Shown: one piece after another, positions 20,829-28,036 of the stretch
Layout of the letters: the number at the start of each line of letters is the position of its first letter
Numbering within the stretch: position 1 is the stretch's first letter
NCBI RefSeq assembly: GCF_010131535.1
Contig: NZ_WUBS01000014.1
Coordinates: forward strand, 93,216 to 133,215
Length of the DNA: 40,000 bases
Direction: 5' to 3'
Source of the DNA: Acerihabitans arboris
GTDB lineage: Bacteria; Pseudomonadota; Gammaproteobacteria; Enterobacterales; Enterobacteriaceae
Notes under the pieces: model-generated
Databases searched by the model: none
What the model saw: the letters and a program-made list of their open reading frames with translations, nothing else
Told to the model about the DNA's origin: nothing
Program-made: the position numbers and the translations under genes

Positions 20829-20845
20829 ACCCGCCGGCGGCGGGT
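20829..20845. terminator. Short GC hairpin between the convergent MTase and ogr genes
   Basis: ACCCGCCG-g-CGGCGGGT, immediately after the MTase stop and touching the ogr stop. No long T-run on either side, so terminator function is uncertain. Confidence 0.4.
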
Positions 20846-21108
20846 TAGACGCGGCCTTGTAAAAGGTCCAGGGCCATTTGCCGATCTTTTGGCTGAATTA
20901 AATTGAGTAGCGACCTGACCAAACCGTTACCAGTTTTAGCGCTTGGGCTTATTGTATGGGAAAACGTGACGTTCAAAACAAAGCTATGGCTGCATTCCAC
21001 GTCACTGCACTGGCAATATAAATCGGATAGGTGGACGTCTTTGCGATTTGTTTTGCGAATATTGGCCGCTGATCCGCATTCCGGGCAAAAAACTTTCATT
21101 ACGCGCAT
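20845..21108 (-). CDS. ogr: Ogr/Delta-type zinc-finger late-gene transcription activator
   Basis: From the ATG at 21108, preceded by GGAGGG 5 nt upstream, the protein reads MRVMKVFCPECGSAANIRKTNRKDVHLSDLYCQCSDVEC. This has the C-x2-C...C-x-C-x4-C cysteine pattern of Ogr/Delta/B activators. Confidence 0.8.
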   Translation of the reverse strand: MRVMKVFCPECGSAANIRKTNRKDVHLSDLYCQCSDVECSHSFVLNVTFSHTISPSAKTGNGLVRSLLNLIQPKDRQMALDLLQGRV

Positions 21109-21773
21109 GATAACCCTCCACAAAACACCCGGTTATTTTAACACCACTTTATAAAAAATGGCTATATAAACGGGCTATCATCGAACTCCCCGGTTCGCAT
21201 ATCGTTCAGTACATAAGTGACGGCACCCCAGCAGACGATGCAGCCAACCTCGCTAAAACACACCAACTTGCTGGGGTAGTCCAACAGTTCCAGGCTGCGG
21301 GCCAGGTAAAGTTCAAAACGCTACATTTTAAACGCGCCAGCTATTTCTGCAATGATAATGCTGCCGTCTAGCGGCATAAGGGATCTATCTAAGATGAGCA
21401 GGGCACCCTGGAAAATCTCCTGGCGGTTAGAGCATTCCCCTATGCGGGTGAAGAACGTCGCGGCGCCACTGGGATGTGTAGCACGTCCAGGCAGAGGCTT
21501 TGCTCAATTTAGGTTTGTACGGGTATAGGAAAACCCATTTTCGTCACCTAATGTCTGTAATTATATACAGTTAAGGATGTTGGGTTGAACTTTGGAGCTG
21601 AGAACAGTATAGGGGACGGACACTCGTAGGACATTGAGTCTAAAACAAATTTTATCCTTTTTATTCTCCAATAATCGCGTTAGGCAAGAAAATTCTAACA
21701 GCTATAAATTGCTTACTTTTTTTTTAAAAAAAGCATATTAATGATATGTGTTTTTTCATGTTAGGTGTCAATT

Positions 21774-22331
21774 ATGGCAAATCCAAGTTCGATAAGCAGA
21801 AGGTTGAATTCATTTTTTGGGGCATTACAGCATAATGATTTTGAAAACGCTTTTATTCATTATTTCCCAGCCTTAGATAAAACGGCAAAGCTCAGAAGGC
21901 CAAAGGAAAACGTATCTAAAAGAATAAAAGCATTTCTTACAGAAGAAGAAAAATTGCTATCCTTCATTGCGTTGGGTGGTTTTGTTGTGGGAAATACATT
22001 CAATGGTGTTTCTGTTATTGATGCATTATATAAATACGGAAGGACATCGATAGCACATGAAGGTGAACTAGATAAGAGATTGTCAGTGCAAGAGGGAAGA
22101 GGGGTATCATTCGGGGATGAATTTATTCTTGATAAAAAATATCTCAGTGCATTAGGAATCATTGTGATCCTTTCACCTGAAAATATTGGAGAACATTTAG
22201 AAGGAAATTATAATTTATACCTTATTGATAAATATATAAATGTAAATTCCTTGTGGGGTAGAAAGGAAGATGTTATTAAAAAAATAATTTCATTAGGTAT
22301 TAATGAAGAGACAATTAGATATTACCCATAA
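21774..22331 (+). CDS. AT-rich stand-alone cargo ORF with an R-x4-H (HEPN-like) motif; candidate abortive-infection/defence protein
   Basis: 185 aa from the ATG at 21774, with AGGTG 6 nt upstream; the GTG at 21765 would give 188 aa. The motif YGRTSIAHEGEL has Arg at 22041-22043 and His at 22056-22058. The ORF is visibly far more AT-rich than the flanking phage genes. It has its own upstream non-coding leader and a downstream hairpin. The family assignment is an inference. Confidence 0.5.
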   Translation: MANPSSISRRLNSFFGALQHNDFENAFIHYFPALDKTAKLRRPKENVSKRIKAFLTEEEKLLSFIALGGFVVGNTFNGVSVIDALYKYGRTSIAHEGELDKRLSVQEGRGVSFGDEFILDKKYLSALGIIVILSPENIGEHLEGNYNLYLIDKYINVNSLWGRKEDVIKKIISLGINEETIRYYP

Positions 22332-22338
22332 ATTATAA

Positions 22339-22394
22339 TTAAGATTTTAGTGTGTGGCCGCCACAAATTTTGGTGGCCACAATAATAATCTTAA
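22339..22394. terminator. Bidirectional stem-loop between convergent cargo genes
   Basis: TTAAGATT (22339-22346) pairs with AATCTTAA (22387-22394), and TGTGGCC (22353-22359) pairs with GGCCACA (22375-22381). The internal loop contains a GTGGCCAC palindrome. Confidence 0.5.
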
Positions 22395-22420
22395 GCGAGC
22401 TTTTTTGATGTTACTTTGAT

Positions 22421-23242
22421 TTAGCTGAATCTTGCATTGTTTAGCTCGTAATCAGCCGCTAACACTTCATTTGGCATCAAGTCTATGTTGCTCAGGATAT
22501 CGAGTCTCACACGGTAAAAGGCGCCACTGAACGCTGCAGCATATCCCCCATCAGTGCCTACATAATGACTTGTGGGCGGAAAGGTCGGCAGGGTTGCAGG
22601 GTAAGTCTGAGTGCTCGATGTGTAAACAAGCACGCCATCGAGGTAAACGTAAAACACAAAAGATGTGCCGTCGTCTGCAACTTTGCATCGAACAGCAATT
22701 TGATGCACCCCTCCGCCCATCATGCCGTTTAAAACAGTTCCAACTGAAAGATCTACGCCCAATACCACAATTTGCGTGCGTGCCAGCGTAGTTAAATCAC
22801 CAGCCGCTGCTACCAGGCGGATTTCGCAAATCTTTTCCGATGCTGTCGTGCGGGAACTGCCTACAAGAAAAATATTGTTGTTAGTACTGGTGTTTCCCAC
22901 CTGGTTGATTTTCAGCCAAATTGTGTACATCCAGTCTTTATCAGTTAAGGCCGGAACGGCTACGGCTGGCAATTGGAATTGACTACCCGACGCGCCCGCC
23001 CATAGCATGCCCCCATTTGCATAAGTGTGCGCTTTTGCAAACACGCCTACAGAATTTTCGTATGACAGGCTTTTTATCTGCGAGCCAGCAACGACATTTT
23101 TTTTGCCGCCACTCCAAGTGATACCGCAGTCGAACGGGCCAATAGTTCCCGCGTTCATCGTGGAGTCACGATAGAGTTTCTCGCCGGTGTCAATAGTGAC
23201 ACCGGTTAACTGTTCTATTTTTCCAGCCATTATTGAACCCAT
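22421..23242 (-). CDS. LamG / concanavalin-A-like lectin-fold protein (putative carbohydrate-binding)
   Basis: 273 aa. Segments such as NNIFLVGSS...EIRLVAAAGDL...HQIAVRCKVADDGTSFVFYVYLDGVLVYTS look like a Laminin-G_3 beta-sandwich. An alternative start at 23230 gives a TAATG overlap with the upstream ORF. Confidence 0.55.
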   Translation of the reverse strand: MGSIMAGKIEQLTGVTIDTGEKLYRDSTMNAGTIGPFDCGITWSGGKKNVVAGSQIKSLSYENSVGVFAKAHTYANGGMLWAGASGSQFQLPAVAVPALTDKDWMYTIWLKINQVGNTSTNNNIFLVGSSRTTASEKICEIRLVAAAGDLTTLARTQIVVLGVDLSVGTVLNGMMGGGVHQIAVRCKVADDGTSFVFYVYLDGVLVYTSSTQTYPATLPTFPPTSHYVGTDGGYAAAFSGAFYRVRLDILSNIDLMPNEVLAADYELNNARFS

Positions 23243-25188
23243 CCTTTATTTTTCATAAATTGATATACGAACTCTGCATTCACTTCTGCGCCAACATAAA
23301 GCGCGTAAGCGGGCGCCATTGAACTGGATTTAGCCTGTGATGGATGGAGATAGTCATAACGAAGCGAGCGTGGTGTAACGCCGTTTCCGACATCTGTCAC
23401 ATCGTCCACATAGTCAGGATTATAATGATTGATAAAGTTTTGCAGCATATCAATGCCATTAATCTGGCAGTATTCCTGCGGAAATTTTCGCTTATATGCT
23501 GCGTTGAGTTTATTTACGTTACTAGCGCCAGCACTACCAGCTGTATCTGATGCCCCTGGAAAGTCGGGAAGGATCACTACTCGTTTACCCACATTCTTCA
23601 GATGCTTAATCATATTGATGGTGTTGTTAATAATCTCATCCGTGTAATTTATATTGTTTCTGCCCAACCAAAATATATTTATACATTGGTCGTTGTCATA
23701 ATAAACGGTTCCTGCCGGCGCACCATTGGGGACGGGTTGAGTCGTTTTTGGGATCACTTTTATTGGTGTCATTTCAGATACTGTTACCGCATTACCGGCC
23801 GCCGTCCTGGTAAATATCGGTGCCGCCCCGTTCCATGTGAACGTCCCGGCAACGCCCGCGTATGTGCACGCGATGCTATTTGATTCAGCCGGGTTATAAA
23901 GGAAACATGGGCCTTGCGCCCATTGCCCAGCTTTCGCAGTTAACGGCACATCCTGAATATCGGCAGGTATCACCCCTGACGTCGGTACATAATACGCAGG
24001 GTCGCCACCCTGGCGCGCCGCTATCGCAACAGACCGAGCAGAACTGCGACCAAAATTGTATGCATACAGGCCAGTTAACTCAACAAGCCGATTCATCATG
24101 CGGGCGTTTTCCATCATGGAATGGCCCCAACCGACCAGCTTTGAACGAGCGATATACGGATAGGGAGTCAATATAGATTTCTCGGCGTAGAACAGGCCAC
24201 CTGGTGCGTTATCGGCGCGGTCGGACACCCAAACAACCCTATGAGTCCCGTCGATGCGAGGGTTTGACTCGTTCGAATCTCCGGATGTTAGAGAGGTTTC
24301 GGTATTATCATCAGTGTTGTAAACCCGAATCTGTGATTTTCCCGCACTGTCGATGATAGTAAAAGGGGCTAACGGGTTAGTCTCGACCGTTGGAATGGTT
24401 TGCGACGCAGCATACGCCTCATCCCACAGGCTCTTTTTCTTTAGCCATTCCGTGATATCGAATAGCTTATTTCTTTCGGCATCAATAAGTACCGAGGGGT
24501 TGTTGTTGAGTTCGAATTCACCTGATGACTCTATGAATTTAGATGCACCCGATAGAATATTGATATTTTCCGATGTTTCGGCATCAGGTAGGGATGACAA
24601 ATCAACTGCCTCGCCATTGGCTGTTAATTTATCCACGGATAATTCTTTAAACTCAGTGGGGATGAGTACTTTCTTATAGCCATTGCGAGCTATCTCAACA
24701 ATGTTATTTTCATTGTCAATTTGCATTTGTTGCACGCTACCGAAAAGCTCATACTCTCCATCAGGTTCAAATTTAGATTGATCAATATAAGTTACCTGTT
24801 CATTTAGTGGCACAATATTAGCCACGCTGGCCGCCACTATATCAACAGCCGCAGCGCTAGGGTACTGAACCTGTGTTACGCCATCTGCGCGATAAACAGG
24901 GGCCGCCGCGCCATTATAGTTAAAAAATTCATTAACCCGCACTTTATCAGCACTGGTCCAAACATGGAAAATTTGGCCGTTCACCGTGGCGGCAAGTCCT
25001 TCAGGAGCAGAATTAAACGCGTTTTCAAAATTGAGTTGTTTTCGAAGATTAGAAATAGAACCTCTTCCCGTTGTATAAGCATCATCAGCAGGTGAAGAAA
25101 TAGGCAAGATGTCCGCGTCATTCAAAATAGTATTAGGATCAAGCTCGGAAATCCGCTTCCCATTAGGGACGTTTGACGTGTCCGTCAT
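23230..25188 (-). CDS. Tail-fibre/tailspike-like protein with a C-terminal SGNH/GDSL-type esterase domain
   Basis: 652 aa. The N-terminus KRISELDPNTILNDADILPISS resembles receptor-binding-protein N-termini. The SGNH blocks are GWGHS357 (Ser codon at 24120-24118), FG380RSS, WLGRN511N and YD612YLH615PS. It starts 2 nt after the portal stop. Confidence 0.6.
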   Translation of the reverse strand: MTDTSNVPNGKRISELDPNTILNDADILPISSPADDAYTTGRGSISNLRKQLNFENAFNSAPEGLAATVNGQIFHVWTSADKVRVNEFFNYNGAAAPVYRADGVTQVQYPSAAAVDIVAASVANIVPLNEQVTYIDQSKFEPDGEYELFGSVQQMQIDNENNIVEIARNGYKKVLIPTEFKELSVDKLTANGEAVDLSSLPDAETSENINILSGASKFIESSGEFELNNNPSVLIDAERNKLFDITEWLKKKSLWDEAYAASQTIPTVETNPLAPFTIIDSAGKSQIRVYNTDDNTETSLTSGDSNESNPRIDGTHRVVWVSDRADNAPGGLFYAEKSILTPYPYIARSKLVGWGHSMMENARMMNRLVELTGLYAYNFGRSSARSVAIAARQGGDPAYYVPTSGVIPADIQDVPLTAKAGQWAQGPCFLYNPAESNSIACTYAGVAGTFTWNGAAPIFTRTAAGNAVTVSEMTPIKVIPKTTQPVPNGAPAGTVYYDNDQCINIFWLGRNNINYTDEIINNTINMIKHLKNVGKRVVILPDFPGASDTAGSAGASNVNKLNAAYKRKFPQEYCQINGIDMLQNFINHYNPDYVDDVTDVGNGVTPRSLRYDYLHPSQAKSSSMAPAYALYVGAEVNAEFVYQFMKNKGWVQ

Positions 25189-25190
25189 AA

Positions 25191-26237
25191 TTAAGCGCCT
25201 CCAGTCGGCGTCGGGGGGATGATATTGAAATTAAGGTGCAGCGCCGCGGGGATTTCAGGGTCGCCGTTGACGGTGGCCATAAACCGCCGTTGGATAGGGA
25301 TCACCTCGTCCTGGCGGTAGGTGTCGCGCCATTTTGTCGGGTCGCCCAGGCCAGCCGTATTTTGTGGAATGATGCCGGCCAGGCCCGCCGGAAACCGGTG
25401 TGCATTGAGAACGTCTTGGGCGGAAATATTTTTGACGTTGGCAAATTCGTCTTTCGCGCTGATATCGCCCACCGGGATAAACTGCACGCCTTTTTCCTTG
25501 CCGTTGGGGATGTTGATATACAGATTTTTGAAATTGCCGATCCCCTTGCTGCCCTGGATTTTCTTTTTGATTTCCTCTTCCAGCTCGGCGGACATATTGG
25601 GATCGGTGGTGTAGAGGATGCCCCCCATATGCGCGCCGTTGGCATAATAGCGGCGGCGGAATACCACGGCCTCACTGTTGAGTAACGCCGAGTTGATGCC
25701 GCCGATATAGTCGGGCAGGCCATAGACCTGTTGCTGCGGATCGTACTGCGTGAGGAAACGGATATCCTGGGACTGATAAACCAGGGGTTCATCTTTTTGT
25801 AGGATGACAAATTCGCCGGTTTTCCGGCGCCGCAGGTACAGCGACGGCAGAGCATATAAACCGACCACGCGCCCCCACCGATCGCGGATCTTCAGTATGG
25901 CCACGTCACCAAACGTCAGGTAATCAAACACCGCCGCGTTAATGGCGGCGTGCGTCAGTCCGCCGGCATCATAGTCTGACGTGACCATATTACGGCGGGC
26001 ATACAGGATGCCTGAATGCTGCGGGCTGGCGTTGGCCAGGCGCGCCAGGGCCAGGCGGCTGATAGGGAGCGTCCACTGATCATAGGAATTGTCGTACCAA
26101 ACCTCTTGATAATCGGTGCCGGTCGTCAGGACCAGCTCAGGCGGCCCAAAAAATATTGTGCTGTTGCCGCCGGGCAACAATGTTGCCGGGACGTCGGTGG
26201 CCGGCGCGTTGTAATTCCGCCGTTTTTTTCTACTCAT
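25191..26237 (-). CDS. gpQ: Portal protein (P2 gpQ family)
   Basis: 348 aa with an ATGA overlap to the terminase gene upstream. Its size and its position divergent from the scaffold/capsid genes match P2 Q-P. Confidence 0.85.
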   Translation of the reverse strand: MSRKKRRNYNAPATDVPATLLPGGNSTIFFGPPELVLTTGTDYQEVWYDNSYDQWTLPISRLALARLANASPQHSGILYARRNMVTSDYDAGGLTHAAINAAVFDYLTFGDVAILKIRDRWGRVVGLYALPSLYLRRRKTGEFVILQKDEPLVYQSQDIRFLTQYDPQQQVYGLPDYIGGINSALLNSEAVVFRRRYYANGAHMGGILYTTDPNMSAELEEEIKKKIQGSKGIGNFKNLYINIPNGKEKGVQFIPVGDISAKDEFANVKNISAQDVLNAHRFPAGLAGIIPQNTAGLGDPTKWRDTYRQDEVIPIQRRFMATVNGDPEIPAALHLNFNIIPPTPTGGA

Positions 26238-28036
26238 GCGGCCCTCTCAAAAAACCAAGTTGATTTACGCTGCGTGTCAAAATTCAGCGGTTCGTGGATG
26301 ACTGCATGCGAAATCGCGAAAAATTCATCGGCGTGGCCGGTTTCGGCGCTGCGCTCCGCGACGAAAGTCAACGCGTTGCCGCTGGCGGTGGACGTACGAC
26401 GGATGGCCAGAAAAGACGCGGCGATGCTTTTATTCTCGGCGTCCCATTCGATGCGGTCGGCTTCGACCGTATCAATCATTTTCATGACCAGATTATTTTT
26501 AGTCTCGGTGCTGTAGTGGATGTCTCTGACCTCGCGTGGCGCGGCAATCTGAAGGCGCTCGAAAACCCCGCGCCCGATGCCGGTCACGTCAACGCCGACA
26601 TAGGTCATGCGGTACTTGGCCATGATTTTAATGATCTGGTCGGCCTGGTATTTAAAATTCATGCCGTTCCAGCGGTAGGTCTCCAATACGCGAAACCGTT
26701 CGCCCTCAAGCGTTGGCGGTGCCACCACAACAAACGTCGACGTGTCGCCGGTGCGCGCCGGGTCAAATCCGCCCCAGACCTCACGCTCGCCAAACGGCCG
26801 CCTATCGCTGGCCTTGAAATCCTGCCAGGTAGCCGGGTCGACTTCGCAGCGCACCAACATATCGAAGCGGAAAACACTATCGCCGCTGTCGATGAAGACG
26901 CACATATACAGCAGATTGAACGCGTCCGGGCTGTGCTCGTCTTTGATGCGCTGGAAGGTGACATATTTACTGAGGCCGCCGGCGCACGCGTCGGCCAGGG
27001 TGATGACATAACGCCACTGGCCGTCCGGACACATTCGCCCGCCGTCGCGCATTTCATCAAAATCAGGGAATTTTTCAGCCAGGCGTTTTTTATCTTTGCC
27101 GGCCCATTCTTTGCCGGTCCAGAACGGGTAAGCGTCATGGGTTTTTGCGCTGGGTGTCGAAAAATAGGTGCGACGGAATTTGTCGTGTGTGGCCATGGCG
27201 CCGGCCACGTCTTTAAAAAGCTGAAACTTAGGCACCCAGAAATATTCATCACAGTACAAGTGGCCGGTTTCGCCCTGGGCTGTGTTTTTATTGGTGGATA
27301 GGAATATCAGGCTGGCGCCATTACTTAACACGATGGGGGTGCCGGTAAGCGTTACGCCGAAAAGCTCTTGCGCGAATTTGACGATATAGCGTCGGAATAT
27401 CTCGGACTGGCGTTTAGACGCCGAAACAAATATCTGGTTGTCGCCGGTTAAGCAGGCGTTTTCCAATGCCTCAAACGCGAAATACCAGGTCATGCCGACC
27501 TGTCGGGATTTGAGGATGTTACGTATAGCAAGATGTAAGTTGGCCCGGCAGATTTTCTGATATTCAAATAAGCTATTTTCGGCAAATTCTGCAAACTTTT
27601 CCGCCGGCATTAGGCTGACATCATTTTTAACCCGCTTGCCGAGCTTGGCGGGTTTTTCATCTTCACCGGCCGCCATGAAACCGACGCCGCCGGGCGCGCC
27701 GCCGTTGCCACCCGCGCCATGGCCAATAGCCGCCATTTTTTCGGCGTGCTTACTGCGCTGCACCAATAATTTAACGTGGTGCTCGATCAGCCGGTCGATC
27801 TCATCTAATTCCAGCGAGGTCTTGTTATCGCGTTTAACCAACACATTGATACGTCGGGTAATGCAATCCTCGACGCTTTCCTCTGTCAGCAATGATCCCC
27901 AATTGCCTTTTTTAACCCACGTGTAAATCACCCGAACAGAATTCAGGTTTAATTTTTTCGCAATCTCCGCCGGAGTATACCTTTGCAGATATAGCCGGGC
28001 GGCTGCGTCTTTTATTTCATCAGGATAAGTCGCCAT
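26234..28036 (-). CDS. gpP: Terminase large (ATPase) subunit (P2 gpP family)
   Basis: 600 aa with an N-terminal HTH-like region, then a Walker-type region and a nuclease domain. It is divergent from gpO, as in P2. Confidence 0.85.
   Translation of the reverse strand: MATYPDEIKDAAARLYLQRYTPAEIAKKLNLNSVRVIYTWVKKGNWGSLLTEESVEDCITRRINVLVKRDNKTSLELDEIDRLIEHHVKLLVQRSKHAEKMAAIGHGAGGNGGAPGGVGFMAAGEDEKPAKLGKRVKNDVSLMPAEKFAEFAENSLFEYQKICRANLHLAIRNILKSRQVGMTWYFAFEALENACLTGDNQIFVSASKRQSEIFRRYIVKFAQELFGVTLTGTPIVLSNGASLIFLSTNKNTAQGETGHLYCDEYFWVPKFQLFKDVAGAMATHDKFRRTYFSTPSAKTHDAYPFWTGKEWAGKDKKRLAEKFPDFDEMRDGGRMCPDGQWRYVITLADACAGGLSKYVTFQRIKDEHSPDAFNLLYMCVFIDSGDSVFRFDMLVRCEVDPATWQDFKASDRRPFGEREVWGGFDPARTGDTSTFVVVAPPTLEGERFRVLETYRWNGMNFKYQADQIIKIMAKYRMTYVGVDVTGIGRGVFERLQIAAPREVRDIHYSTETKNNLVMKMIDTVEADRIEWDAENKSIAASFLAIRRTSTASGNALTFVAERSAETGHADEFFAISHAVIHEPLNFDTQRKSTWFFERAA

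What the first reader, a model, noticed from the sequence alone, without database searches (positions are those of the whole stretch)
22421..25188. Tailspike-like SGNH esterase plus LamG-fold protein translationally coupled to the terminase-portal late operon
**Seen in the sequence**
- Two ORFs (652 aa and 273 aa) continue the minus-strand P-Q operon without gaps. The portal stop and the 652-aa start are 2 nt apart.
- The 652-aa stop overlaps the 273-aa ORF, as TAATG if the start at 23230 is used.
- The 652-aa protein has an N-terminus of the type seen in phage receptor-binding proteins (KRISELDPNTILNDADILPISS).
- Its middle part contains PD40/beta-propeller-like stretches (IRVYNTDDNTETSLTSGDSNESNPRIDGTHRVVWVSDR).
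- Its C-terminal domain has SGNH blocks I (GWGHS357), II (FG380RSS), III (GRN511N) and V (D612-x-x-H615).
- Block I reads GHS rather than the canonical GDS.
- The 273-aa protein looks like a LamG/ConA-type beta-sandwich.
- Both genes appear lower in GC than the head genes.

**Established knowledge**
- In P2 nothing follows Q, and the tail fibres (H, G) lie in the tail cluster.
- SGNH esterases on virions act as receptor-destroying O-acetyl esterases.

**Inference**
- This is either an accessory virion-associated glycan-deacetylating receptor-binding module placed in an atypical location, or a late-expressed surface-modifying function acting as receptor destruction or superinfection exclusion.
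Basis: partly seen in the sequence, partly recalled or inferred. Interest (0 to 1): 0.65.

Follow-up and report, generated by a model that had tools for sequence, protein, structure and literature searches.

The report
Swappable esterase tail-fibre cassette behind portal
An intact HP1/P2-type prophage carries, directly behind its portal gene, a rare exchangeable two-gene module: a tail-fibre-like sugar de-acetylating enzyme and a lectin-fold partner protein that travels with it in every other phage where it was found. This most likely gives the virus a second way to recognise or modify its host's surface.

Summary
Two intact minus-strand ORFs (652 aa and 269/273 aa) follow the portal gene, with a 2-nt gap and a TAATG overlap.

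[quoted passage not shown] Ser357, Asn511, Asp612 and His615 align with its Ser, Asn, Asp and His; Ser and His were confirmed there by mutagenesis.
- **Anchor.** The N-terminal ~120 residues resemble the attachment domains of secondary tail fibres of jumbo phages.
- **Partner.** It has a ConA/LamG fold. In all 24 other pairs examined, its gene lay directly after an esterase of this type, in phages of three tail types.
- **Locus.** In about 70 related phages ogr follows the portal within ~100 bp. Only one portal clade carries an insert there: five prophages with the same anchor but different enzymes (petal esterase, alginate lyase, GDSL-like, weak SASA-like, one unassigned).
- **Exchange.** Compared with a prophage whose portal is 99% identical, homology breaks inside the anchor and resumes at the ogr promoter.

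Best reading: a swappable accessory receptor-binding or receptor-modifying fibre. Virion attachment, enzyme activity and the partner's role are untested. This is a new variant of a known kind, of moderate interest.

The parts
26234..28036 (-). Large terminase (600 aa), first gene of the leftward late operon
   Evidence: Pfam Terminase_6N, Terminase_6C and Terminase_5; PHROG large terminase families.
25191..26237 (-). Portal protein (348 aa). Its stop lies 2 nt before the esterase start.
   Evidence: Pfam Phage_portal and phrog_68, E 7.6e-118; junction sequence.
24820..25188 (-). N-terminal anchor domain of the 652-aa protein (aa 1-123)
   Evidence: 67%, 56%, 53% and 32% identical to the N-termini of the post-portal proteins of L004, L014, L017 and L027. 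It matches N-termini of several tail fibres per genome in jumbo phages; the best match in phiKp24 lies at the N-terminus of gp307. phrog_27731. DNA homology with L004 ends inside this domain, at 24920.
24379..24819 (-). Middle region (aa 124-270), modelled with low confidence, ending in a long helix (aa 245-263)
   Evidence: AF2 pLDDT 30-70. It is conserved together with the esterase domain in all 17 partner-linked pairs from viral contigs.
24169..24378 (-). Small six-strand beta unit (aa 271-340) with PD40/TolB-blade-like local similarity
   Evidence: pLDDT about 95. Foldseek local matches to TolB blades. Weak TIGR04275 repeat hit.
23233..24168 (-). Petal-type SGNH O-acetyl esterase domain (aa 341-652) with S357, N511, D612 and H615
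   Evidence: phmmer E 3.3e-52 to PDB 9sij/9sim, the epsilon15 tailspike. Catalytic residues align and are conserved in 28-29 of 29 homologues. pLDDT above 90. Foldseek TMt 0.65-0.67 to GDSL lipase 3p94. Esterase activity of the epsilon15 domain is shown in bioRxiv 10.64898/2026.07.31.742079.
22421..23230 (-). Partner protein (269 aa from the ATG at 23230), ConA/LamG-like beta-sandwich, translationally coupled by TAATG
   Evidence: phrog_19357, E 2.7e-54, function unknown. Weak Laminin_G_3 hit. AF2 pTM 0.74. Foldseek ConA-like hits. In all 24 other pairs examined the gene lies directly after an esterase of this type; the stop/start junction was measured in the 15 viral-contig loci.
22352..22381 (.). 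GC-rich hairpin between the partner stop and the convergent 188-aa gene; likely a bidirectional terminator closing the late operon
   Evidence: Sequence GTGGCCACCA...TGTGGCGGCCAC. The terminator-like scan hit lies at 22353-22365.
21165..24919 (.). Exchanged segment relative to the near-identical Sodalis sp. RH18 prophage (L004)
   Evidence: blastn homology runs over window 33178-24920 and resumes at 21164-17672. L004 carries 2.46 kb of unrelated DNA in between.
21765..22331 (+). AT-rich 188-aa cargo gene inside the exchanged segment (context, not part of the pair)
Evidence: 33% GC. No Pfam, PHROG or PADLOC hit here.
20845..21123 (-). Ogr/Delta-type late activator. In relatives without the cassette it lies within ~100 bp (mostly ~55-90 bp) after the portal.
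   Evidence: Pfam Ogr_Delta, E 6e-17. Synteny in about 70 of 79 loci.

Best explanation
The pair is an accessory receptor-binding and receptor-modifying fibre cassette of an intact HP1/P2-type (Peduoviridae) prophage.

**Proposed mechanism**
- It is read as part of the terminase-portal late operon; no separate promoter was sought.
- The 652-aa protein has three parts: an N-terminal ~120-residue docking domain that would fix it to the virion, a stalk with a small beta unit, and a distal SGNH esterase.
- The esterase would strip O-acetyl groups from the host's O-antigen or capsule, as the homologous petal domain of epsilon15 gp20 does.
- The 269-aa ConA/LamG-fold protein, made in step with it through the TAATG overlap, is its cognate partner. 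It is most likely a lectin-like subunit that binds the esterase module through its conserved termini. Less likely, it is a dedicated folding helper.
- The slot between portal and ogr is specific to one lineage. Homologous recombination between the conserved anchor and the ogr promoter exchanges enzyme plus partner, which would change surface specificity.

**Shown**
- Homology, catalytic residues and predicted folds.
- The linkage of partner to esterase.
- That the slot is variable, and where the exchange breakpoints lie.

**Inferred**
- Virion attachment, the substrate, the partner's role and the effect on adsorption.
For: **Enzyme**
- E 3.3e-52 to the epsilon15 tailspike petal domain.
- S787, N937, D1035 and H1038 map to S357, N511, D612 and H615. 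These residues are conserved in 28-29 of 29 homologues.
- The epsilon15 domain de-O-acetylates galactose in O-antigen, and S787A and H1038A abolish this.
- The AF2 model has pLDDT above 90 for this domain and an SGNH fold.

**Fibre nature**
- PHROG tail-fibre families match.
- Homologues are annotated tailspikes placed after gpJ, after a collar fibre, or after the N4-like head-to-tail adaptor.
- The N-anchor matches several fibre N-termini per genome in jumbo phages. The best match in phiKp24 is the N-terminus of gp307, which PMC9700779 places among secondary fibres that attach to docking sites.

**Cassette behaviour**
- About 70 of 79 portal relatives have ogr within ~100 bp of the portal. 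L017 and L027 carry inserts of about 2.9 kb that begin with the anchor.
- L004 has an alginate lyase and L014 a GDSL-like enzyme on the same anchor.
- All five cassette portals form one clade (100/96). Its only other member is a contig cut inside the portal gene.
- The breakpoints lie inside the anchor and at the ogr promoter.

**Partner**
- In 15 of 15 viral contigs (17 pairs), its start lies at the stop of an upstream ORF carrying the esterase middle and C-terminal regions. The same adjacency holds in three cultured phages and four chromosomal prophages.
- It is absent next to epsilon15-type tailspikes that share only the petal.
- It has a ConA-like fold, as do several proteins annotated as virion structural.
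- Its termini are its best-conserved parts.

**Prophage and host**
- The prophage is complete, from integrase to baseplate.
- The host genome has seven acyltransferase-3 genes.
Against: - There is no direct evidence that either protein is in the virion.
- The genes sit with the packaging genes, not the tail genes.
- The phage already has a conventional fibre and a Caudo_TAP chaperone.
- No docking site for the anchor was identified.
- The N-terminal 50 residues and aa 100-230 are modelled poorly, and trimer formation could not be tested.
- The residue at the epsilon15 oxyanion-Gly position is Ser.
- The partners of the other four cassettes do not match this partner family, so a common partner function is assumed rather than shown.
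- The anchor and the partner are rare. They were found in 0 of 300 family genomes and 0 of 400 order genomes sampled.
Confidence: 0.62

Rival explanations
1. Soluble late enzyme. The esterase, with its partner, is not built into the particle. It is released at lysis and strips acetyl groups from cell debris and neighbouring cells. This would act as receptor destruction that frees progeny, or would pre-condition capsule or biofilm.
For: It is co-transcribed with packaging genes rather than tail genes. The phage has its own fibre and chaperone. No docking partner for the anchor was found. Neither protein has an obvious N-terminal hydrophobic signal sequence when read by eye, so release would have to wait for lysis.
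Against: A conserved N-terminal domain shared with fibre attachment domains has no obvious use in a free enzyme. It is also kept across five cassettes whose enzymes differ. Every homologous module found elsewhere sits in a tail-fibre position.
Confidence: 0.18
2. The partner is a dedicated assembly chaperone for the esterase fibre, analogous to tail-fibre assembly proteins, and is absent from the finished particle. In this reading it is not a lectin-like subunit.
For: It lies immediately downstream with a stop/start overlap, the classic position of fibre chaperones. It varies together with the catalytic module rather than with the anchor. It is absent where the petal is appended to a self-trimerising beta-helix tailspike, as in epsilon15.
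Against: It matches no known chaperone family. A 270-residue ConA-like jelly roll is a carbohydrate-binding type of fold, and several structural matches are annotated as virion structural proteins.
Confidence: 0.3
3. Anti-phage defence or superinfection-exclusion cargo of the variable slot of a P2-type prophage, which changes the lysogen's surface.
For: The slot lies between the replication and portal genes, where P2-type prophages carry cargo; that this is a known cargo position is from my own knowledge. An AT-rich candidate defence gene sits beside the pair.
Against: There are no PADLOC matches. Neither protein has an obvious signal sequence by eye, so a lysogen could not deliver them to its surface. 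Both are coupled to late genes rather than to a lysogenic promoter. Their homologues are tailspikes.
Confidence: 0.04
4. Inert passenger: a fragment of another phage's fibre module captured by recombination, with no function in this virion.
For: Lower GC than the neighbouring genes. The module is rare in the genomes sampled.
Against: Both ORFs are intact, and the catalytic residues and coupling signals are conserved. Five members of one portal clade keep an anchor-plus-enzyme-plus-partner arrangement at the same site, with different enzymes. That pattern implies selection for the slot.
Confidence: 0.06

Closest known systems
[quoted passage not shown]
   Same: Homologous over the whole domain (38% identity, E 3e-52). 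Both have the GHS nucleophile motif and the aligned Asn, Asp and His. A stretch of six beta strands is inserted between blocks II and III (aa 399-478 here; residues 826-906 in gp20).
   Different: In epsilon15 the domain is appended to a beta-helix endorhamnosidase tailspike, and no partner gene follows. Here it is the only recognisable enzyme, sits on a different stalk and anchor, has Ser at the Gly813 position, and is always accompanied by a ConA-like partner gene.
SGNH-esterase tail fibres of Klebsiella prophages (PLoS Biol 2026, PMC13123978) and E. coli phage G7C gp63.1
   Same: They are fibre proteins of phages, temperate or virulent, whose distal SGNH domain deacetylates surface polysaccharide instead of cutting it. 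The Klebsiella prophage homologues found here (P0008 and others) belong to the same module family as the window protein.
   Different: Those fibres lie in tail modules of lambda-like or N4-like phages. I found no mention of a conserved downstream partner in the passages of that paper that I searched. Whether the two proteins assayed there belong to the petal subfamily was not checked.
Secondary (group 3) tail fibres of jumbo phage phiKp24 and relatives (PMC9700779)
   Same: The N-terminal ~100 residues are homologous (34-42% identity). Within one genome, the same N-terminus carries different enzymatic C-termini.
   Different: Those phages carry many such fibres on a branched primary fibre with T4gp10-like docking domains. 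No such docking domain was recognised in this 33-kb prophage.
P2 H/G and Mu S/U type fibre plus assembly-protein gene pairs
   Same: A two-gene unit in which the downstream gene is coupled to, and specific for, the fibre's distal part. In Klebsiella prophages whole pairs sit on an invertible segment next to a Hin/Gin-type recombinase.
   Different: The partner is unrelated in sequence and fold to Caudo_TAP chaperones. The prophage has a separate conventional fibre-plus-Caudo_TAP pair in its tail module.

Membership tests
SGNH/GDSL hydrolase superfamily | Block I nucleophile Ser in a G-x-S motif | tested here: met
   GWGHS357 aligns with epsilon15 GHS787. Ser is present in 29 of 29 esterase homologues; the middle residue is H in 21 and D in 9.
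SGNH/GDSL hydrolase superfamily | Block II oxyanion-hole Gly | tested here: inconclusive
   The position aligned with epsilon15 Gly813 is Ser383. That column is S in 15 and G in 13 homologues. Gly380 is nearly invariant, three residues upstream. The contact is made by a backbone amide, so Ser may serve (inference).
SGNH/GDSL hydrolase superfamily | Block III Asn (G-x-N) and block V D-x-x-H | tested here: met
   GRN511 and D612-Y-L-H615 align with N937, D1035 and H1038 and are conserved in 28-29 of 29 homologues.
SGNH/GDSL hydrolase superfamily | Three-layer alpha/beta/alpha fold | tested here: met
   AF2 pLDDT above 90 for aa 341-652. Foldseek TMt 0.62-0.67 to GDSL lipase 3p94 and PAF acetylhydrolase 3dt6. 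The E-values of the whole-model search are weak because the model has several domains.
SGNH/GDSL hydrolase superfamily | Esterase activity | not testable with these tools
   Needs pNP-acetate and polysaccharide assays with S357A and H615A controls.
epsilon15 gp20 petal-domain subfamily | Full-length sequence homology, including the beta subdomain inserted between blocks II and III | tested here: met
   phmmer aligns aa 342-650 with gp20 residues ~774-1068, E 3.3e-52. Six strands are predicted at aa 399-478, where gp20 has its six-stranded barrel at 826-906.
Virion receptor-binding fibre or tailspike | N-terminal domain homologous to known fibre attachment domains, with exchangeable distal domains | tested here: met
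   tblastn matches to the N-termini of several fibres per jumbo-phage genome, including phiKp24 gp307. The same anchor carries five different distal enzymes.
Virion receptor-binding fibre or tailspike | Gene located in the tail or baseplate module | tested here: not met
   It lies after the portal in the packaging operon. The tail module, with its own fibre, lies 15 kb away.
Virion receptor-binding fibre or tailspike | Physical presence in the particle and trimeric state | not testable with these tools
   Needs virion proteomics, electron microscopy, or multimer structure prediction.
ConA-like lectin / LamG superfamily (partner protein) | Sequence match to a family model above its threshold | tested here: inconclusive
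   Laminin_G_3 scores E 0.0019 and 18.8 bits against a cut-off of 27.6.
ConA-like lectin / LamG superfamily (partner protein) | Jelly-roll beta-sandwich fold | tested here: met
   AF2 pTM 0.74 with mean pLDDT 66. Foldseek probability 1.00 and TM 0.45-0.62 to sialidase lectin domains, CBM40 and many phage ConA-like proteins. This is fold-level resemblance only, at 8-18% identity.
Tail-fibre assembly chaperones (Caudo_TAP / lambda Tfa type) | Sequence membership | tested here: not met
   The partner has no Pfam or PHROG chaperone hit. The prophage's real Caudo_TAP gene is at L012:9732-10241.
Known anti-phage defence systems | Match to PADLOC models | tested here: not met
   No family matched either protein at E up to 0.1.

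The most novel reading that the evidence does not exclude
One lineage of HP1-type phages has evolved a dedicated plug-in slot behind the portal gene for a second, exchangeable surface-enzyme fibre, attached through a phiKp24-type docking domain. The attachment point could be the neck or collar rather than the baseplate. The ConA-like proteins that always follow petal-type esterase modules would be obligate trans-acting lectin subunits: an undescribed family needed for these fibres to fold or to bind their target. That could also help explain why many prophage receptor-binding enzymes fail when expressed alone.
Probability: 0.25. Interest if true: 0.65.

Novelty: new variant of a known kind. 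Interest (0 to 1): 0.5.

Why it matters
- Deacetylating rather than cutting surface sugars is emerging as a common strategy of temperate phages. This locus adds three points to that picture.
- First, P2/HP1-type myoviruses, usually thought to rely on one fibre, can carry a second enzyme-bearing fibre in a lineage-specific slot outside the tail module.
- Second, the slot is exchanged as a unit. The recombination handles are clear: the anchor domain on one side and the ogr promoter on the other. This makes it a natural example of modular change of specificity.
- Third, petal-type esterase fibres come with an uncharacterised, strictly linked lectin-fold partner. The family has about 170 clusters at 50% identity.
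- If the partner is required, anyone expressing or annotating such prophage enzymes should include it.

Tried and rejected
- **cos site between the pair and ogr.** blastn of the window interval against the same interval of L004 and L014 found only the ogr promoter region conserved. No cos-like element can be claimed, so the P2 argument that nothing can follow Q does not apply.
- **Genome-wide scan for the anchor.** The degenerate-pattern scan of genome contigs returned no confirmed relative. Whole-genome searches found the anchor in 0 of 300 genomes of the family and the partner in 0 of 400 genomes of the order. These are samples and do not prove absence.
- **Anchor against solved structures.** No hit at E up to 10.
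- **A common partner family for all five cassettes.** An HMM built from 132 partner homologues did not match the partners of L004, L014, L017, L027 or the second Klebsiella pair, even at E 10. Only L014's partner shows a weak Laminin_G_3 hit.
- **Full beta-propeller in the middle region.** Rejected. Only a two-blade-sized unit is present.
- **Defence-system reading.** No PADLOC hits.
- **Resemblance of the partner model to neurotoxin binding domains.** This is the generic lectin jelly-roll fold at 8-11% identity. I attach no toxin meaning to it.
Full report
**1. The observation**

The two minus-strand ORFs exist as described: 23230-25188 (652 aa) and 22421-23242 (273 aa). The portal ORF (25191-26237) ends in TAA. 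Two bases later comes the ATG of the 652-aa ORF, preceded by GGAGG. The 652-aa ORF ends CAA TAA, and its stop overlaps an ATG at 23230 as TAATG. Homologues and the public gene call start at that ATG (MAGK/MAGRIE...), so the second protein is 269 aa. GC is 0.46-0.49 across the pair and 0.53-0.58 across portal and terminase.

**2. The phage**

The window holds a complete prophage of about 33 kb.
- Integrase, CI-like repressor and Cox lie at 12.6-14.4 kb, next to host two-component response-regulator and LTXXQ-family (CpxR/CpxP-like) genes.
- A gpA-type replication protein, a Dam-like methylase and Ogr follow.
- Terminase and portal lie on the minus strand. P2-type scaffold, capsid, small terminase and gpL/R/S-type head-completion and tail-completion genes are inferred from synteny with L004.
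- Tail genes of the HP1 type follow: DUF2586 sheath, HP1 Orf24, tape measure, Baseplate_J, a gpI-like protein, a 507-aa collar-type fibre with its Caudo_TAP chaperone, HP1 ORF34 and a 557-aa baseplate protein.
- The phage therefore already has a conventional fibre and chaperone. The pair under study is extra.

**3. The 652-aa protein**

*C-terminal domain (aa 342-650).*
- It matches PDB 9sij/9sim, 'Tail spike protein', at E 3.3e-52.
- tblastn shows the same domain at the end of the epsilon15 tailspike gp20.
- A 2026 preprint (bioRxiv 10.64898/2026.07.31.742079) describes these structures. Residues 778-1070 of gp20 form a monomeric 'petal' with an SGNH alpha/beta subdomain and an inserted six-stranded barrel. 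The conserved residues are Ser787, Gly813, Asn937 and His1038, with Asp1035 completing the putative triad.
- That domain removes the acetyl group from galactose in the O-antigen, and S787A and H1038A abolish the activity.
- In my alignment these residues fall on S357, S383, N511, D612 and H615.
- In 29 homologues, Ser, Asn, Asp and His are conserved in 28-29. The motif is GHS in 21 and GDS in 9. The Gly813 column is Ser in 15 and Gly in 13.
- The AF2 model has pLDDT above 90 from residue 270 to the end, with six strands at 399-478 where gp20 has its barrel.
- Foldseek finds GDSL-type hydrolases at TMt 0.62-0.67.
- The SGNH esterase reading is therefore well founded.

*Residues 273-336.* This is a confidently modelled six-strand unit that matches about two blades of TolB-type propellers locally. 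The TIGR04275 repeat hit is far below its cut-off. It is PD40-like in a loose sense only.

*Residues 1-123.*
- They match the N-termini of tail-fibre proteins of jumbo Serratia and Klebsiella phages, with two to five such proteins per genome.
- In phage Moabite the matching gene lies in an array of at least seven fibre genes.
- In phiKp24 the best match is the N-terminus of gp307. PMC9700779 places gp307 among the secondary fibres whose short N-terminal part attaches to a docking site on another fibre.

**4. The partner**

- The 269-aa protein has only a sub-threshold Laminin_G_3 hit and a strong match to phrog_19357, whose function is unknown.
- Its AF2 model (pTM 0.74, mean pLDDT 66) is a beta-sandwich.
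- Foldseek relates the model to lectin-type jelly rolls in the PDB and in phage proteins. Several of these are annotated as virion structural proteins, at TM 0.45-0.62 and 8-18% identity. This is fold-level resemblance only.
- A profile search of 1.84 billion representatives found 170 clusters, nearly all stand-alone proteins of 250-290 aa.
- The first 40 and last 20 residues are the best-conserved parts. The N-terminal 24 residues are modelled with very low confidence. I read this, as inference, as a segment that folds on a partner.

**5. Linkage of partner and esterase**

The same adjacent pair was found in other places:
- three cultured phages: Erwinia phage Gungnir39 (after the central tail protein), the N4-like Klebsiella phage JZBo1 (after the head-to-tail adaptor) and Pectobacterium phage PEAT2;
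- Klebsiella lambda-like prophages, after gpJ;
- a Winslowiella myovirus-type prophage, after a collar fibre;
- a Sodalis praecaptivus prophage, on a lambda Stf-type N-terminus;
- 15 of 15 IMG/VR contigs (17 pairs). There the partner's start lies at the stop of an upstream ORF that carries the middle and C-terminal regions of the esterase but never the window's anchor.

Phages that share only the petal (epsilon15, E15, SW16-7, Bestiario) have no partner gene. The mobile unit is therefore residues ~124-652 plus the partner, grafted onto whichever N-terminus suits the recipient phage.

**6. The slot behind the portal**

- Among 79 IMG/VR relatives of the portal, about 70 have ogr within ~100 bp (mostly ~55-90 bp) after the portal stop, followed by the convergent gpA gene.
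- Only L017 and L027 carry about 2.9 kb between portal and ogr. In both, the insert begins with the window's anchor (53% and 32% identity).
  - L017 encodes a 641-aa protein with a weak, sub-threshold SASA-esterase hit, plus a 278-aa protein.
  - L027 encodes a 692-aa protein plus a 296-aa protein.
- Two assemblies show the same arrangement.
  - Sodalis sp. RH18 (L004) has a 508-aa alginate lyase whose first 123 residues are 67% identical to the window's, plus a 265-aa protein.
  - L014 has a 615-aa GDSL-like protein (56% identical in the anchor) plus a 253-aa protein with a weak Laminin_G_3 hit.
- In a portal tree, all five cassette-bearing portals fall in one clade (support 100/96). Its only other member, L023, is a contig that ends inside the portal gene.
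- The window and L004 portals are 99% identical.
- DNA homology between the window and L004 runs from the tail-completion genes to window position 24920, about 90 codons into the anchor. It resumes at 21164, just upstream of ogr. The intervening 3.75 kb (window) and 2.46 kb (L004) are unrelated.
- This is the signature of cassette exchange by recombination in a conserved N-terminal handle.
- The partners of the other four cassettes do not match the window's partner family. Each enzyme type brings its own second gene.

**7. Interpretation**

The most economical reading is an accessory, exchangeable receptor-binding or receptor-modifying fibre, in three parts:
- a lineage-specific docking domain;
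- a distal enzyme, here an O-acetyl esterase;
- a cognate second protein.

The host genome has seven acyltransferase-3 genes, three of them within 9 kb of each other. O-acetylated surface glycans are therefore plausible substrates, but none was identified.

Four rivals remain, in decreasing order of weight on the pair's overall function.
- The enzyme is soluble and released at lysis.
- The pair is an inert passenger. The intact reading frames, the conserved catalytic residues and the recurrence of the arrangement in one clade argue against this.
- The pair is defence or exclusion cargo. There is no PADLOC match, neither protein shows an obvious signal sequence by eye, and both are coupled to late genes.
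- Separately, on the partner's role only: it may be an assembly chaperone rather than a subunit.

A GC-rich hairpin after the partner gene probably ends the operon.

**8. Novelty**

SGNH-esterase fibres are known from G7C gp63.1, Possum gp66, Klebsiella prophage fibres (PMC13123978) and epsilon15 gp20. Three things have no counterpart in the papers I could search:
- the strictly linked ConA-like partner family;
- a dedicated post-portal slot in HP1-type Peduoviridae with its own anchor;
- the documented exchange between near-identical prophages.

I rate this a new variant of a known kind, of moderate interest. The scan had already noted the same stretch as an 'accessory island' (e1-2463272).

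Noticed in passing
L005:7361-16860 compared with L006:4848-14347 (Klebsiella prophages): The block holding two convergent fibre-plus-partner pairs lies between gpJ and a Hin/Gin-type resolvase gene. The pairs are a 629-aa petal esterase with a 269-aa partner, and a 730-aa SASA-type esterase with a 260-aa protein. The block occurs in both orientations in different assemblies. This looks like an invertible segment that switches whole receptor-binding pairs. Contigs L103 and L108 show two convergent petal-esterase pairs.
   Followed up: partly
window 21765-22331 (+): A 188-aa gene at 33% GC, convergent with the partner gene, lies inside the segment that differs from the Sodalis sp. RH18 prophage. 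It had no Pfam, PHROG or PADLOC hit in my searches.
   Followed up: no
L015:13971-15083 (Sodalis praecaptivus prophage region): A 370-aa acyltransferase-3 gene lies about 3 kb from the 74%-identical esterase-plus-partner pair on a lambda-type prophage. It could be an O-acetylating serotype-conversion gene sitting beside an O-acetyl-removing fibre.
   Followed up: no
window 21124-21764: About 640 bp without a long ORF lie between the ogr start and the AT-rich gene. Only the ~20 bp just upstream of ogr is conserved with L004. No cos-like element is shared with L004 or L014.
   Followed up: partly
G000:C23:386000-394942: Three acyltransferase-3 genes lie within 9 kb in the host genome. This may be a surface-polysaccharide locus that supplies O-acetylated substrate.
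   Followed up: no
L004:10350-10646: The alginate-lyase cassette of the Sodalis sp. RH18 prophage carries an extra 98-aa ORF between its partner gene and ogr. It sits where the window has the AT-rich 188-aa gene, so the slot also collects small cargo genes.
   Followed up: no
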